A stretch of DNA of 63,961 bases from Candidatus Woesearchaeota archaeon. GTDB taxonomy: Archaea; Nanobdellota; Nanobdellia; SCGC-AAA011-G17; GW2011-AR18. The stretch spans positions 1 through 63,961 of the forward strand of contig JAGVZG010000006.1 in NCBI GenBank assembly GCA_018302765.1. The letters are read 5' to 3'. The position numbers and the translations under genes are program-made. Below the pieces are notes generated by a model, which saw nothing but the letters and a program-made list of their open reading frames with translations, made no database searches and was not told the origin of the DNA. Of this stretch, positions 7,279 to 37,853 are shown piece after piece; position 1 is the stretch's first letter, and every line of letters starts with the position of its first letter.

Positions 7279-7767
7279 ATGCTACCAAAAAATTTACTAA
7301 AATATAATCCTAAGCTGTTTGCAAGAGGCAAAAGAGGATTAATTTACACGTTTAAGAAAAATAAAAAAACTATAGCTATAAAAATAAAAAATCCAGAATC
7401 AAAAGCAGAAAACAGAATTCAAAATGAAATAAATTTTTTGAAAATTCTAAATAAACACAAAATAGGTCCAAGAATAATTGAAATTGGAGAAGACTACTTT
7501 TGCTACGAGTTTATTAAAGGAGAAACATTAAAAGATTTTTTAAAGAATAAAAAAAACTACAAGAAAGTTCTAGAAAATATCATGCATCAATGTGAAATAA
7601 TGGATGAACTAAAGATAAATAAAGAAGAAATGCATAAACCACTAAAAAATATAATTATAAAAAATAAAATACCTGTAATAATAGATTTTGAACGCTGTCA
7701 TTTTACATCAAGGCCAAAAAATGTAAATCAATTTAAAGAATTTTTAAGAAGAATTAATTTAGAATAA
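7279..7767 (+). CDS. Small atypical Ser/Thr protein kinase (Bud32/RIO-like fold)
   Basis: ARGKRGLIY Gly-rich loop, AIK lysine, NE helix, KNIII and IIDFERC (DFG-like). ATG at 7279 preferred over TTG at 7246. Confidence 0.7.
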   Translation: MLPKNLLKYNPKLFARGKRGLIYTFKKNKKTIAIKIKNPESKAENRIQNEINFLKILNKHKIGPRIIEIGEDYFCYEFIKGETLKDFLKNKKNYKKVLENIMHQCEIMDELKINKEEMHKPLKNIIIKNKIPVIIDFERCHFTSRPKNVNQFKEFLRRINLE

Positions 7768-7769
7768 AA

Positions 7770-8926
7770 TCACTTAAAAATTTTTGCGCGACGTACCCAC
7801 AACCACGAGATCGAGTACTGAGGATACCTGTAACAGTCCAAGTAGACCCTGCCAGAATCGACACAGAACCTAACGACAGCTGTATCTATTGGATGCCAAT
7901 AATATAAACTGCCATTTGGGATATTAGTTTTAGGAATTCCCCAGGAAGTTGAATTTGACAGCCATCTATTCCAGGAGTTTTGTCTGACATTAAGCAGTCT
8001 TTCAACTCCTCTGAAAATTCTTCTAATTCTCCATCATCTTTAATCTTATGATAAGTAATGTAAATTCCATTTTTTATTTTTGTAAACTTTGCATCAAGCC
8101 ATTCTCCTCTCCAAGGATTTCTGAATTTTAATATTTCATCCAATATAATCTCTTTTTCTTCTTTTGTTAATTTAACTCCATCTGAATACTTTGCATCTTC
8201 AGATTTTAATAAATTTATAAAATCAACAAACTGTCTAATTGTTAGCATAAAACAACCTTCATTGTGTAGTAATTTCTGACACTCATTCCAACTTTTTCCT
8301 AAATAGCTTCTATTTACAGAAACTAAAATATCAGGATAAGAATACCCACTATAAGCTTTTCCAGGGAGTGCAATCCATTTTTCTTCTGGCAGTTCAACAA
8401 GTTCCAAAAGTTCAACTTTTTTAGCAGGGGACAATTCTTTAACAGATTTTACAGGCTTCTCAACTTCAACAACACCACCCAAAGGACTTATTGTAATCTC
8501 ATAATCAATCTTAAAATTCCTTGAAAGAAATTTAAATGTCTCATTGTTTATTAAAGATTCCTGGAAAATCTTCAGCTTCTTTTTATATTTCTTCAAAATA
8601 CTTTCAACAGAAGAGTTTATATCATTCCATTCAAAGCAATTCAATATTTCAGTTCTTATTATTTTCTCTTGATTATCGTCAAGTCTTCTACCTTCAATTT
8701 CATTATTAAGAGAAATATAATTAAGTATACCATTTACTTGTCCAAAAACTAATTGTTGTATGCCATGAAAAACATTACTATATTTTATCTCTAAATTATA
8801 AAAAGGAACAGGAGTATGTTCTCCATTTTCATCTATATGTATTATTGTTATTAATAAGTTAATTTTGTAATTGAGTGCACTGCCTAATTGTTGTTTAACT
8901 AGTTCATTAACATCTTTAATTTTCAT
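7770..8926 (-). pseudogene. DGR target protein (CLec-fold, DPANN AvpA-like), frameshifted at about 7964
   Basis: ORF 8926..7886 carries FMLTIRQFVDF, PWRGEWLDAKF and DKTPGID. A second frame with no start codon continues WLSNSTSWGIPKTNIPNGSLYYWHPIDTAVVRFCVDSGRVYLDCYRYPQYSISWLWVRRAKIFK to TGA at 7772-7770, matching a DPANN DGR target C-terminus. Confidence 0.8.
7788..7880 (-). other. DGR variable region (VR)
   Basis: Hand count over 93 nt: 49 G+C (53%) and only 12 A on the coding strand. Enriched in NNY codons (TAC, GAC, GAT, ATC, TGT) at positions expected to be AAY in a template repeat. Confidence 0.75.
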
Positions 8927-13875: not shown

Positions 13876-14323
13876 TTTCCTCTATAATGCCCCCTTTGTC
13901 CTTTATTTTTTTAACAACCGCTTGAGAAAAATACTGGGCGCTAATTTTCAACTTGACATTTACATCACCGCCACCCAATAATTTTTGATAGCCCAGTTTA
14001 TCTAAATCAACAACATAAAAATCTCCTTCTTTAGCAACTAATTTATTTTTAAGATAAAATTCCAGTTTATTCTGTAAATCATCCACATTTATAGCTTTAA
14101 TTTTTTTAACTAATTTCTGAGGCCTATTAAATCCATGTTTGCCAAAATACTCATTTCCATATAATTTTAATATTGTTGGTTTTTTCTGGTCAGCCCTTTT
14201 ACCGCTGCCAGCCATTCCCCTACCGCCCCTATTGCCAGCGCCCCTGTGCTTCTTCTTAGCGCCCCATCCGTGGGTGTGGGTTCCTCTCATCCTAGAAAAC
14301 TTACTTCTTTTATTTACAGTCAT
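13862..14323 (-). CDS. rpl15: 50S ribosomal protein uL15
   Basis: RGTHTHGWGAKKKHRGAGNRGGRGMAG. Confidence 0.98.
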   Translation of the reverse strand: MTVNKRSKFSRMRGTHTHGWGAKKKHRGAGNRGGRGMAGSGKRADQKKPTILKLYGNEYFGKHGFNRPQKLVKKIKAINVDDLQNKLEFYLKNKLVAKEGDFYVVDLDKLGYQKLLGGGDVNVKLKISAQYFSQAVVKKIKDKGGIIEENVSD

Positions 14324-21289: not shown

Positions 21290-21932
21290 TGTTCTCTTCT
21301 TCCTTCTTAACTTCCAATTTTACCTCAACTTTTTCCTCTTTAATTTTAACATCATCAGGCAAGACAACCTCAGGATGCAAAATACTTACTTTAATTCCAA
21401 TAGTTCCACTTCTCAAATTACAATACTCATAAGACCTGTCAACATAATTTGCAGATATGTCTCCTGACTTTTTCAAATAGCCTGCAGAAAATCTCCAACT
21501 TTTCGCTCTCTCGCTAGGAACGCCTCTGCCAGATATAACTATTTCTATTCCGCGCGCGCCAGCTTTCAAAGCGTCATCTAATGCCTTATAAGCCATAGCT
21601 TTAAACCTCTTAGGGCCAAACCTTTCAAAACCACTTATCAAAGATCTTGCAACAGAAGCCGCATCAATAAAAGGATTTGTAATCTCAACAACTTCAAGCT
21701 GTGGATTTTCCATATTAAATTTAGCCTTTAATAATTCTGTAAGTTTTTTTATATTTGAACCTTTTTTACCAACAATCAAACCAGGCCTTGAAGTATAAAC
21801 ACTGATTTTTTCTCCTAAAGGAGTTCTCTGCATCATTATATGACTACAGCTAACTCTTCCTAAATAAGAAAATACAAATTCCTCTATTGCTCTCTCTTTA
21901 GATTTCTGTGCAACTATTTGTCTCTCAATCAT
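21270..21932 (-). CDS. rps3: 30S ribosomal protein uS3
   Basis: RTPLG, RPGLIVGKKG KH domain, GARGIEIVISG. Confidence 0.98.
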   Translation of the reverse strand: MIERQIVAQKSKERAIEEFVFSYLGRVSCSHIMMQRTPLGEKISVYTSRPGLIVGKKGSNIKKLTELLKAKFNMENPQLEVVEITNPFIDAASVARSLISGFERFGPKRFKAMAYKALDDALKAGARGIEIVISGRGVPSERAKSWRFSAGYLKKSGDISANYVDRSYEYCNLRSGTIGIKVSILHPEVVLPDDVKIKEEKVEVKLEVKKEEENNGDKKE

Positions 21933-22763: not shown

Positions 22764-23480
22764 TTATCTTATTCTTCCAGTCCTCCTAGCTCTAACTTGG
22801 CCTACTTTTCTTCCAGGGGGTGCATGCCTAGGAGCGACACTGGGTTTACCCATATGCCTTCCTCTACCAGACCCAAATGGGTGCTCAACAGCATTCATTG
22901 CAACAGCTGATGTTATAGGATATAATCTTCCTCTTGCTCTCATCGCATGCCACCTATTGCCTGCTTTAATAAATGGTTTCTCAAGCCTTCCGCCTCCAGA
23001 AACAATACCAACAGTTGCCCTGCAAGAAGAATTGAAATCAACTTCTTTCCTGCTCGGCATTAAGATTTTAACTTTATTCCCTGTCTTGGAAAGTACTTTA
23101 GCAAAAGTGCCTGAAGCTCTGACAAATTTTCCGCCATCGCCAGCTTTGCTCTCTATGTTGTAAATTAAAGTACCGTCTGGAATTTCAGAAAGTTGTAAAG
23201 TATTACCTGTTTTTATTTCATTAGTTTTTCCGCTATAAATTATATCCCCAACACCAATACCTTCTGGAGCAATAATATGTCCAATTTCTCCATCATCGTA
23301 TTTAATAATTGCTATAGGTGAACTATGGCTAACACTATGTGCAATTTCTACGACCTTACCAAAATAATTCCTGTCTTTATCTAAAGATTTATGTTTTGCC
23401 TTTGCAAAAAACCTATGACTAGGTGCAATATACCTTCTTGTTCCTCTTCCACGTTTTTGACTTGTAATTCTTTTTCCCAT
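22764..23480 (-). CDS. rpl2: 50S ribosomal protein uL2
   Basis: [28 protein letters not shown]. Confidence 0.99.
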
Positions 23481-37511: not shown

Positions 37512-37693
37512 TGGTGGGCCTGGCCTGATTTGAACAGGCGACCTTTATCGGAATATAAAAATTCTCTCGATTTCGAGACCCCATCAAGAGAGCAGAGCTC
37601 TCATTTCTCACCTCCGAAGAGAGAGAATGGGATATCAGTCGAATGAGCAAACATTTACAGTTTAGTGCTCCAGCCAAGCTAAGCTACAGGCCC
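37512..37693 (-). tRNA. tRNA-Ile(GAT) with three introns: 27/28 (37643-37664, 22 nt), 37/38 (37572-37632, 61 nt), 43/44 (37545-37565, 21 nt); CCA encoded
   Basis: Acceptor GGGCCTG/CAGGCCC-ACCA and T arm GCCTG-TTCAAAT-CAGGC. Removing the introns gives stem CTCGA/TCGAG and loop CTGATAA. BHBs GAGC:GCTC and ATCG:CGAT are perfect. Confidence 0.9.
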
Positions 37694-37744: not shown

Positions 37745-37853
37745 CGCCCTAGGCAAGACTCGAACTTGCGACCCCATGATCTCTGCTCAGAAAGTAACAG
37801 TTTCACAGGCCTTAAGTAGAACACATGTGCTCTACCTGCTGAGCTACTAGGGC
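37745..37853 (-). tRNA. tRNA-Asn(GTT) with two introns: 30/31 (37802-37823, 22 nt) and 37/38 (37781-37794, 14 nt)
   Basis: Acceptor GCCCTAG/CTAGGGC, T arm GCAAG-TTCGAGT-CTTGC, spliced stem CATGA/TCATG; BHB helices CACA:TGTG and CTGT:GCAG. Confidence 0.92.

What the first reader, a model, noticed from the sequence alone, without database searches (positions are those of the whole stretch)
7788..7880. Hidden DGR variable region with no template repeat or reverse transcriptase in the window
Seen: a 93-nt coding-strand segment with 53% GC and only 12 adenines inside an otherwise A-rich gene, encoding AVVRFCVDSGRVYLDCYRYPQYSISWLWVRR. It is absent from the ORF track. Known: DPANN DGRs (Paul et al. 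2015, 2017) diversify CLec-fold targets by adenine-specific mutagenesis of an AAY-rich TR. I found no RT ORF and no second copy of this repeat by eye. Inference: this is a remote target diversified in trans, or an orphan. The predicted TR would read roughly A-V-x-R-F-N-x-N-S-x-R-x-N-L-N-C-N-R-N-P-x-N-S-N-x-x-L-G-V-R.
Basis: partly seen in the sequence, partly recalled or inferred. Interest (0 to 1): 0.85.

Follow-up and report, generated by a model that had tools for sequence, protein, structure and literature searches.

The report
Remote DGR variable region, intron-bearing template
The GC-rich patch is a genuine variable region of a diversity-generating retroelement in a small DPANN archaeon; its template and reverse transcriptase lie on another contig, and the template carries a tRNA-type mini-intron that is missing from every gene copy it writes.

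Summary
In detail: window 7788-7880 (-) is 93 nt, 52.7% GC, with 12 A, and has the stated translation.

The same genome holds a DGR cassette on contig C26: a VR cut by the contig start, the Rfam RT-16 leader, a TR at 366-476 and an RT at 527-1594.

- **Adenine pattern.** Against that TR the window VR differs at 11 of 22 TR adenines and at 1 of 61 other bases. Across the three VRs the counts are 41/64 against 1/171.
- **Fold.** A model of the intact protein has a C-type-lectin fold. Its best match is the DGR variable protein TaqVP (Z 9.6); AvpA scores 7.3.
- **ORF track.** The VR is missing because this assembly lacks 10 nt between 7964 and 7965. Contigs of four metagenome runs and 388-aa proteins from other assemblies carry the intact gene.

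Two caveats apply. The RT has an in-frame TGA at codon 49, and the same VR alleles recur in all four runs, so current activity is doubtful.

The unexpected part is that the TR holds 21 nt (C26:437-457) absent from all three VRs. The site is conserved in 14 related DPANN DGRs and has bulge-helix-bulge geometry with covariation. The TR RNA is therefore probably spliced by host EndA/RtcB before reverse transcription. This scan had already noted such TR introns in other genomes. I found no paper describing them.

The parts
7798..7880 (-). Variable region (VR), the mutable part, aligned to TR C26:366-436 plus 458-469 (TR without its 21-nt insert).
   Evidence: 11 of 22 TR adenines changed (4 A>G, 7 A>T), 1 of 61 non-A positions changed (G>T). 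Fisher p = 4.5e-7.
7773..7797 (-). Invariant GC-rich 3' tail of the VR (IMH-like). It is identical in the VRs of C24, C11 and C26, and differs from the TR's 3' end (GGGTA in the VRs, GAATA in the TR).
   Evidence: The same GGGGT/GGAAT-type contrast is described for Nanoarchaeota DGRs in PMC4372165.
7809..7810 (-). The place in the VR that corresponds to the exon-exon junction of the TR. The 21 nt at C26:437-457 would lie between these two bases and are absent.
   Evidence: The junction is fixed by which positions vary among the three VRs (only the TR adenines).
7770..7964 (-). C-terminal part of the target gene, in the frame that holds the VR. The stop codon TGA is at 7770-7772.
   Evidence: stop-to-stop frame 7770..8033. 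Proteins P0007 and P0221 (388 aa) continue through this frame.
7964..7965 (.). Site where this assembly lacks 10 nt, which breaks the reading frame between the gene body and the VR.
   Evidence: table 4: the 10 nt are 'put in behind 7964' in the dominant contig of all 4 runs (30.2/33.6, 85.4/118, 35.1/94.3 and 7.96/7.96 depth). The paralogue on C11 has them.
7886..8926 (-). The ORF as assembled (346 aa). It holds the N-terminal domain and most of the C-type-lectin-fold domain of the target protein; its last ~26 codons are out of frame.
   Evidence: P0220, 346 aa, is the form called on the 63,961-nt contig.

Best explanation
Window 7770-8926 (-) is a target gene of a diversity-generating retroelement in a ~1.0-Mb DPANN archaeon related to Woesearchaeota/Nanoarchaeia. 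Its last ~83 coding bases (7798-7880) are a variable region that was rewritten from the template repeat on contig C26, at least 7.7 kb away and possibly much further. The cassette there reads: proximal target VR, structured RT-16 leader RNA, TR, RT.

Inferred mechanism: the leader-TR RNA is transcribed. Its 21-nt bulge-helix-bulge insert is cut out by the host tRNA-splicing endonuclease and the ends are joined by RtcB. The DGR RT copies the spliced TR and misincorporates opposite adenines. The cDNA then replaces the VR at every locus that carries the shared GC-rich 3' tail (C26, C11 and this window). This changes residues on the C-terminal face of a C-type-lectin-fold domain.

Shown here: the TR/VR relation, its adenine specificity, the RT type, the fold (by model), the absence of the insert from all VRs, and the conserved BHB geometry. 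Inferred: splicing by EndA/RtcB, transfer in trans, and whether the system is still active. The frame break in the window is an assembly artefact or a rare variant.
For: - **TR and RT found in the same genome.** BLAST of the VR finds C26:367-435 and further VRs on C11 and at the start of C26. RVT_1 matches C26:737-1378. The RT carries the LGNLTSQ-type motif and is 52-84% identical to hundreds of DPANN RTs that have TR/VR pairs.
- **Adenine specificity.** Window VR 11/22 A against 1/61 non-A; C11 VR 15 A>G only; C26 VR 15 A changes only. Pooled p = 5e-28.
- **Shared tail.** The 3' tail is identical in the three VRs.
- **Fold.** The model of P0007 has pLDDT 83.5, and above 90 over most of residues 179-388. 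VIA-align gives TaqVP 5vf4 Z 9.6 over 177 residues, many CTLDs at Z 8-8.6, TvpA Z 7.7, AvpA 5ioo Z 7.3 and Mtd Z 7.0.
- **Intact gene elsewhere.** The 10 nt are present in all 4 runs. 388-aa forms P0007 and P0221 have the same VR.
- **TR insert.** It is absent from 3 of 3 VRs although a TR adenine downstream of it is mutated in all three. The same site is occupied in 14 related TRs, including one of the same genus.
- **BHB geometry and covariation.** 98% of cells are paired, 3 pairs show double changes, and 0 of 500 shuffles reach the score. 14 of 16 TR-only inserts fit BHB geometry, against 3.1% of random pseudo-inserts.
- **Host enzymes.** EndA and RtcB are present.
Against: - The RT has an in-frame TGA at codon 49 (C26:671-673), where relatives have Q or K. 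TGA is an ordinary stop in this genome. The enzyme may therefore be dead in this strain.
- The same three VR alleles occur in four runs of four studies and in many assemblies. No ongoing diversification is seen, though contigs hide rare variants.
- The genome is a 28-contig MAG, so physical linkage of C24 and C26 rests on binning.
- The outer helix of a canonical BHB is not evident. The insert's own predicted fold is not better than shuffles.
- No RNA data were available.
Confidence: 0.88

Rival explanations
1. Fossil target: the VR was written by the DGR in the past, but the system is now dead in this lineage, so 7798-7880 is a frozen relic that evolves like any other coding sequence.
For: - The RT has a premature TGA, and TGA is a normal stop here.
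- 212-aa post-stop ORFs were called on 14 contigs, including ones of 47.9 and 77 kb.
- Identical VR alleles occur in 4 runs and in several assemblies.
- A second, truncated DGR RT on C10 and orphan VR-like tails on C5, C12 and C9 have no TR. This shows that DGR decay does happen in this genome.
Against: - Only 1 non-A difference in 61 positions, and a tail identical to that of the proximal VR, argue for recent rewriting.
- A 355-aa RT form with W at the stop position is on record from 13 contigs. It could be a TGG allele or a TGA read by a code-4 gene caller; this was not resolved.
- Contigs cannot show minor VR variants.
Confidence: 0.45
2. The 21-nt TR segment is not spliced from RNA. Either the RT jumps across the base of the hairpin during cDNA synthesis, or the insert entered the TR DNA after the last round of homing.
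For: - The predicted fold of the own insert is weak.
- No canonical outer helix is seen.
- In this genome alone, a dead RT plus a recent insertion would give the same picture.
- Wu et al. 2018 ascribe TR/VR length differences to slippage.
Against: - The insert site is shared by TRs whose RTs are only 56-73% identical, and each VR matches its own TR on both sides of the site. The insert therefore predates many homing events.
- The deduced junctions fall after the second base of a 3-nt bulge on both sides of a 4-bp helix, in 8 different helix sequences. This is the cut pattern of the archaeal splicing endonuclease as I know it from the tRNA literature. It is rare by chance (3.1%).
- One related VR (L020:1468-1570) retains the insert with adenine changes, so the RT can read through it.
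Confidence: 0.15
3. The GC-rich island is a structured RNA gene (tRNA or other ncRNA) or a chance compositional island, not a VR.
For: GC-rich islands in AT-rich archaeal genomes are often RNA genes. The patch lies between two convergent ORFs as assembled.
Against: - ARAGORN finds no tRNA and Rfam no family here.
- The stretch continues a conserved protein frame found in 95 homologues.
- It has an adenine-specific relation to a TR.
Confidence: 0.01

Closest known systems
DGRs of Nanoarchaeota and other DPANN archaea (Paul et al. 2015, PMC4372165; AvpA structure 5IOO; the CPR/DPANN set in Wu et al. 2018, PMC5758913)
   Same: - Host group, and a DGR-clade RT.
- An AAY-rich TR just upstream of the RT.
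- The VR at the 3' end of a C-type-lectin-fold gene.
- The GGGGT-type against GGAAT-type contrast between the VR and TR ends.
- Several targets per TR.
   Different: - The target family has no Pfam or PDB sequence match and only a fold-level likeness to AvpA (Z 7.3).
- No Avd-like gene was found.
- No supported hairpin lies 3' of the VR.
- The TR carries an insert absent from the VRs, a feature I did not find described in these papers. Paul et al. 2017 could not be read.
Bordetella phage BPP-1 DGR with an engineered td group I intron in TR (Naorem et al. 2017, PMC5703328)
   Same: Only the ligated exons of an intron-tagged TR reach the cDNA and VR, which shows an RNA intermediate. The archaeal TRs look like a natural version of that experiment.
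   Different: - Here the insert is natural, 17-50 nt long, and of the protein-dependent bulge-helix-bulge type rather than a self-splicing ribozyme.
- Splicing would depend on host EndA and RtcB.
- BPP-1 uses Avd and a spacer RNA 3' of TR. Here a conserved structured leader (RT-16) lies 5' of TR.
Archaeal bulge-helix-bulge introns of tRNA, rRNA and a few mRNAs (such as cbf5); from my own knowledge of the literature
   Same: - A 4-bp central helix.
- A 3-nt bulge cut after its second base.
- An adjoining h' stem of variable sequence and length.
- The host encodes EndA and RtcB.
   Different: - The substrate is the non-coding template RNA of a retroelement.
- The outer helix is missing (relaxed HBh'-like form).
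- The consequence of splicing is written into DNA.
Multi-target DGRs with remote targets (Treponema and Legionella types, mentioned in Wu et al. 2018)
   Same: One TR serves several paralogous targets scattered in the genome, recognised through a shared VR 3' end.
   Different: The host is archaeal, the target family differs, and no Avd was found.

Membership tests
Diversity-generating retroelement (DGR) | A TR/VR repeat pair whose differences fall at TR adenines | tested here: met
   41 of 64 A positions against 1 of 171 non-A positions over three VRs; p = 5e-28.
Diversity-generating retroelement (DGR) | A DGR-clade reverse transcriptase next to the TR | tested here: met
   RVT_1 scores 76 bits at C26:737-1378. 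The [LIV]GxxxSQ-type motif is present. Nearest relatives are RTs that all sit beside A-mismatch TR/VR pairs. Caveat: there is one in-frame TGA at codon 49.
Diversity-generating retroelement (DGR) | VR at the 3' end of a target ORF, with an IMH at the VR end and a differing IMH* in the TR | tested here: met
   The VR ends 26 nt before the stop codon. The invariant tail is shared by three VRs, and the TR end differs at 5 of the last 9 aligned bases.
Diversity-generating retroelement (DGR) | Accessory protein Avd | tested here: not met
   No PF05635 match in the genome, which is 100% complete by markers. No ORF over 37 aa lies between the VR and TR on C26. Avd is not universal in archaeal DGRs.
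Diversity-generating retroelement (DGR) | Ongoing diversification (VR heterogeneity in a population) | tested here: inconclusive
   Only contigs could be laid. The same alleles occur in 4 runs, and minor variants are invisible in contigs.
C-type-lectin-fold DGR variable proteins (Mtd, TvpA, TaqVP, AvpA) | A CLec fold with the VR forming its C-terminal strands | tested here: met
   Model of P0007. TaqVP Z 9.6, TvpA 7.7, AvpA 7.3, Mtd 7.0, and many CTLDs at Z 8-8.6, all over residues ~180-388. This is a predicted structure; Foldseek E-values are weak.
C-type-lectin-fold DGR variable proteins (Mtd, TvpA, TaqVP, AvpA) | Sequence-level membership in a described family (FGE-sulfatase, DUF1566 and similar) | tested here: not met
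   No Pfam family. No PDB sequence match even with a profile.
Archaeal bulge-helix-bulge (BHB) intron | A central 4-bp helix flanked by 3-nt bulges, with junctions after the second bulge base | tested here: met
   Own TR: a CUCG/CGAG helix with AA|A and AC|C. 14 of 16 TR-only inserts with 8 different helices fit. Chance rate 3.1%.
Archaeal bulge-helix-bulge (BHB) intron | Flanking helices h and h' | tested here: inconclusive
   h' is present and covaries (CG:9 against UA:5 at one pair), but it is only 2 bp in the own TR. No consistent outer helix h was found, so at best this is the relaxed HBh' form.
Archaeal bulge-helix-bulge (BHB) intron | The host has the splicing endonuclease and RtcB ligase | tested here: met
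   PF01974 scores 97.6 bits on C12. PF01139 scores 565 bits on C27. Two intron-containing tRNA genes lie in the window.
Archaeal bulge-helix-bulge (BHB) intron | Excision and exon ligation observed in RNA | not testable with these tools
   No RNA run holds the stretch. The only evidence is the absence of the insert from the DNA copies (VRs).
Rfam RF03019 RT-16 RNA | A match above the gathering score | tested here: met
   C26:173-369, 79.4 bits against a gathering score of 50, full model length. 22 of 33 predicted pairs covary in 11 loci.

The most novel reading that the evidence does not exclude
The DGR that writes this window's VR, like many DPANN DGRs, needs the host's tRNA-splicing machinery. 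Its template RNA carries one bulge-helix-bulge intron (relatives carry up to three) that must be removed by EndA and RtcB before mutagenic reverse transcription. Host RNA processing would then gate, and become visible in, a DNA-rewriting system. Occasional use of unspliced RNA (seen in one related VR) would add length variation.
Probability: 0.72. Interest if true: 0.8.

Novelty: new variant of a known kind. Interest (0 to 1): 0.62.

Why it matters
The VR by itself is one more DPANN DGR target, a known kind. It does show that such targets can be recognised from raw sequence without the cassette.

What matters more is the template. If TR RNAs of DPANN archaea are routinely spliced at BHB sites before being copied into DNA, three things follow.
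- DGR finders that demand collinear TR/VR pairs will miss or truncate them. Here BLAST stopped at 69 nt.
- DGR activity is coupled to a host housekeeping enzyme.
- The VRs are a natural DNA record of archaeal RNA splicing in organisms that cannot be cultured.

The finding also warns that MAG assemblies around paralogous DGR targets contain frame-breaking errors that hide the VR from gene callers.

Tried and rejected
- **RNA gene at 7788-7880.** ARAGORN and Rfam find none.
- **Sequence-level family for the target.** No Pfam family. No PDB match by sequence, even with a profile. Foldseek against PDB gave only weak CTLD rows (E 0.06 or worse). The fold call rests on VIA-align.
- **Hairpin 3' of the VR.** DNA fold z = 0.07.
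- **Thermodynamic support for the own insert alone.** z = -0.72, and the MFE uses an alternative palindromic pairing.
- **A second TR for the other VR-like tails** (C5 end, C12 start, C5:98.5 kb, C9). None is in the genome.
- **Genome-wide TGA recoding as an explanation of the RT stop.** Not supported.
- **Allele at RT codon 49 elsewhere.** The pattern scan of genome contigs found nothing.
- **Minor VR variants.** Only Logan contigs were available, no raw reads and no RNA runs, so variants and TR transcripts could not be examined.
- **Literature access.** Paul et al. 2017 is not held.
- **Literature searches linking DGR templates with BHB or the splicing endonuclease.** They returned nothing relevant.
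- **Different gene bodies joined to the same three VR alleles** (P0002, P0222, P0223). I read these as assembler chimeras across the ~190-nt stretch shared by the paralogues, not as biology.

Full report
**1. The observation**

The stretch 7788-7880 read on the minus strand is 93 nt, 52.7% GC, and holds 12 adenines. The gene upstream is 28.6% GC and 39% A. Only 0.12% of 93-nt windows in the whole 63,961-nt window are as GC-rich (profile).

It is missing from an ORF list because it lies in another frame than ORF 7886..8926 (-). That ORF stops at a TAG, while the VR frame is open from 8033 to the TGA at 7770-7772 but has no start codon. ARAGORN and Rfam find no RNA gene here.

**2. Template and reverse transcriptase**

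The window is a whole contig (C24) of a 1.02-Mb, 28-contig genome. Searching that genome with the VR found four things:
- a 90%-identical copy on C11 (848-1033);
- an 87% copy at the very start of C26 (5-101);
- a second 87% match at C26:367-435;
- weaker paralogues on C5 and C9.

Pfam RVT_1 matches C26:737-1378. Reading C26 gives a classical cassette. A VR is cut by the contig start. About 260 nt of non-coding DNA follows. Then comes an AAY-rich repeat at 366-476, whose translation has N wherever the VRs vary. Last is an RT gene at 527-1594.

After removing 21 TR-only bases (below), the TR aligns without gaps to the three VRs:
- window VR: 11 of 22 TR adenines changed (4 to G, 7 to T) and one G>T among 61 other positions;
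- C11 VR: 15 changes, all A>G;
- C26 VR: 15 changes, all at A.

Fisher tests give p = 4.5e-7 for the window VR and 5e-28 for all three.

All three VRs end in the same invariant GC-rich tail, and the TR's end differs from it. The contrast is of the GGGGT/GGAAT type that Paul et al. 2015 describe for Nanoarchaeota IMH/IMH*.

**3. The target protein**

The family has 95 homologues, all unnamed. Those with a taxon label are from Woesearchaeota or Nanoarchaeia. The C-terminal ~210 residues are conserved, and the last ~35 show a fixed scaffold with variable positions.

There is no Pfam family and no PDB sequence match. An AlphaFold model of the intact 388-aa form P0007, built with 93 sequences, has mean pLDDT 83.5, and above 90 over most of residues 179-388.

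Foldseek gave only weak C-type-lectin rows. VIA-align against 48,161 chains gave the following, all over residues ~180-388:

| Match | Z |
|---|---|
| TaqVP, DGR variable protein (5vf4, 177 residues) | 9.6 |
| A long run of C-type lectin domains | 8-8.6 |
| TvpA | 7.7 |
| AvpA (5ioo) | 7.3 |
| Mtd | 7.0 |

**4. The frame break is not biological, or at least not typical**

Relative to the C11 paralogue the window lacks 10 nt between 7964 and 7965. I laid contigs of four groundwater and soil metagenome runs from four studies on 7500-8500. They show those 10 nt in the dominant contig of every run, and no contig supports the deletion (table 4).

The protein cluster of the window gene holds 388-aa forms from seven further contigs, two of them 64 and 77 kb long. 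The 346-aa form occurs only on the 63,961-nt contig. The C11 copy in this MAG likewise lacks 39 codons that other assemblies have. Assembly around these paralogues is unreliable, and that is why the VR looked 'hidden'.

**5. Is the system alive?**

The RT has a TGA at codon 49, where relatives have Q or K. Among the full-length RT matches listed from 20 related genomes, only one other has an internal stop (a TAA). TGA is used as a normal stop here, and single-stop frame pairs are not enriched for it.

Other assemblies yielded either a 212-aa post-stop ORF (14 contigs) or a 355-aa protein with W at that codon (13 contigs). The W may be a TGG allele or a TGA read under code 4.

In all four runs the window's VR allele, the C11 allele and the TR are present unchanged (table 8). 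Different assemblies only reshuffle the same three alleles.

Recent writing is supported by the near-absence of non-A differences. Present activity is not shown. I put about even odds on the element being frozen in this strain.

The genome also holds a truncated second DGR RT fused to an HTH (C10) and VR-like tails without any TR. DGR decay does occur here.

**6. The TR insert**

BLAST alignments of TR to VR stop after ~69 nt. The TR continues with 21 nt (C26:437-457) that no VR has, and homology then resumes.

The alternative gapless alignment would require nine TR adenines to have become the same base in three independently mutated VRs. With the 21 nt removed, every variable VR position is a TR adenine and every constant one is not. 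One mutated adenine lies 3' of the insert, so the cDNA crossed the junction.

Of the 80 RT loci fetched from metagenomes, 57 TR/VR pairs show almost exclusively A-site mismatches. Ten of these loci, plus four genomes of the same order including one of the same genus, carry an insert at the same TR site. Its ends are conserved, its length varies from 17 to 50 nt, and it is absent from their own VRs. Other TRs carry two or three inserts at other sites (L022, L045, L052, L068).

Placing the junctions where the VRs demand gives the same architecture in 14 of 16 inserts:
- four bases of exon 1 pair perfectly with four bases near the 3' end of the insert;
- each is followed by a 3-nt bulge cut after its second base;
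- a stem of 2-10 bp starts right after the 5' bulge.

There are 8 different helix sequences. Random pseudo-inserts meet these criteria 3.1% of the time, even with nine shifts allowed.

In an alignment of 14 homologous inserts, 98% of cells pair and three pairs show double changes. No shuffle of 500 reaches the covariation score, and slid controls pair at 33-54%.

This is the geometry of archaeal bulge-helix-bulge introns in the relaxed form without a clear outer helix. The cut positions are as I know them from the tRNA-intron literature. The genome encodes the splicing endonuclease (212 aa, C12) and RtcB. The window itself holds two intron-containing tRNA genes.

One related VR (L020:1468-1570) keeps the insert with adenine changes, while its sister VR lacks it. 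Both spliced and unspliced RNA therefore seem usable, and the RT can read through the hairpin. This argues against an obligatory template jump.

The own insert's fold alone is not significant, and no RNA data exist. Splicing remains an inference, which I put at about 0.7.

**7. Known or new**

DGRs with several and remote targets in DPANN archaea are known. Wu et al. 2018 report TR/VR length differences in 7% of DGRs and ascribe them to slippage at AAC.

The nearest precedent for a spliced template is the engineered td intron in the BPP-1 TR.

Full-text searches combining DGR or template repeat with bulge-helix-bulge, BHB, splicing endonuclease, bulge or spliced found nothing relevant. Paul et al. 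2017 could not be read.

This scan's own notes already record BHB-type introns in DGR templates of at least five other DPANN genomes. They also record the RT stop and orphan VRs in this genome. I reached the same reading before consulting them (note) and tested it here.

The 5' leader is Rfam RT-16 (79.4 bits), one of the RT-associated motifs of Weinberg et al. 2017. Placing it directly 5' of a DGR TR, with 22 covarying pairs, is a small addition.

**Verdict**

The VR itself is a new member of a known kind. The intron-bearing template makes the system a new variant.

Noticed in passing
G000 contig C26:671-673 (locus L009): A single in-frame TGA at codon 49 of the DGR reverse transcriptase, where relatives have Q or K. 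Other assemblies give either a 212-aa post-stop ORF or a 355-aa form with W at this codon.
   Followed up: partly
G000 contig C26:173-369 (L009): The conserved structured leader directly 5' of the TR matches Rfam RF03019 (RT-16 RNA, 79.4 bits). In 11 related loci, 22 of 33 predicted pairs covary. No Avd gene is in the genome, so this RNA may take over part of that role.
   Followed up: partly
L020:1468-1570 against L020:677-760 (metagenome locus): Two VRs of one DGR: one lacks the TR insert, the other retains it with adenine-site changes and a 1-nt indel. This suggests that both spliced and unspliced template RNA get copied.
   Followed up: partly
L022, L045, L052, L068 (metagenome loci): TRs with two or three separate BHB-like inserts (16-49 nt), each with its own perfectly complementary 4-bp helix, and all absent from the VR.
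   Followed up: partly
G000 C10:88965-89441 (L010:979-1818, -): A truncated second DGR-type RT (C-terminal half only) fused to an HTH_40 domain, with no TR nearby. It is probably a remnant.
   Followed up: partly
G000 C5:111720-111818 and C12:1-100; C5:98485-98883; C9:17859-18980: Further paralogues of the target family. Two contig ends share an identical 99-nt VR-like tail with the same GC-rich end. There is also one truncated copy, and one intact 373-aa copy whose tail looks template-like (N-rich). None matches any TR in the genome.
   Followed up: partly
G000 C11:1-1041 (L002): The C11 paralogue in this MAG lacks 39 codons that the same gene has in other assemblies (P0002, P0223). This is a second sign of misassembly around these repeats.
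   Followed up: partly
window 37515-37693 and 37745-37853 (-): Two tRNA genes with long inserts (179 and 109 nt spans), found by Rfam but missed by ARAGORN. They are presumably intron-containing and show that the host relies on BHB splicing.
   Followed up: no
window 14157-14319, 21480-21585, 22766-22914: Three other stretches reaching 50% GC or more in 93-nt windows. By eye they look like Gly/Arg/Pro-rich coding ends on the minus strand, not VRs.
   Followed up: no
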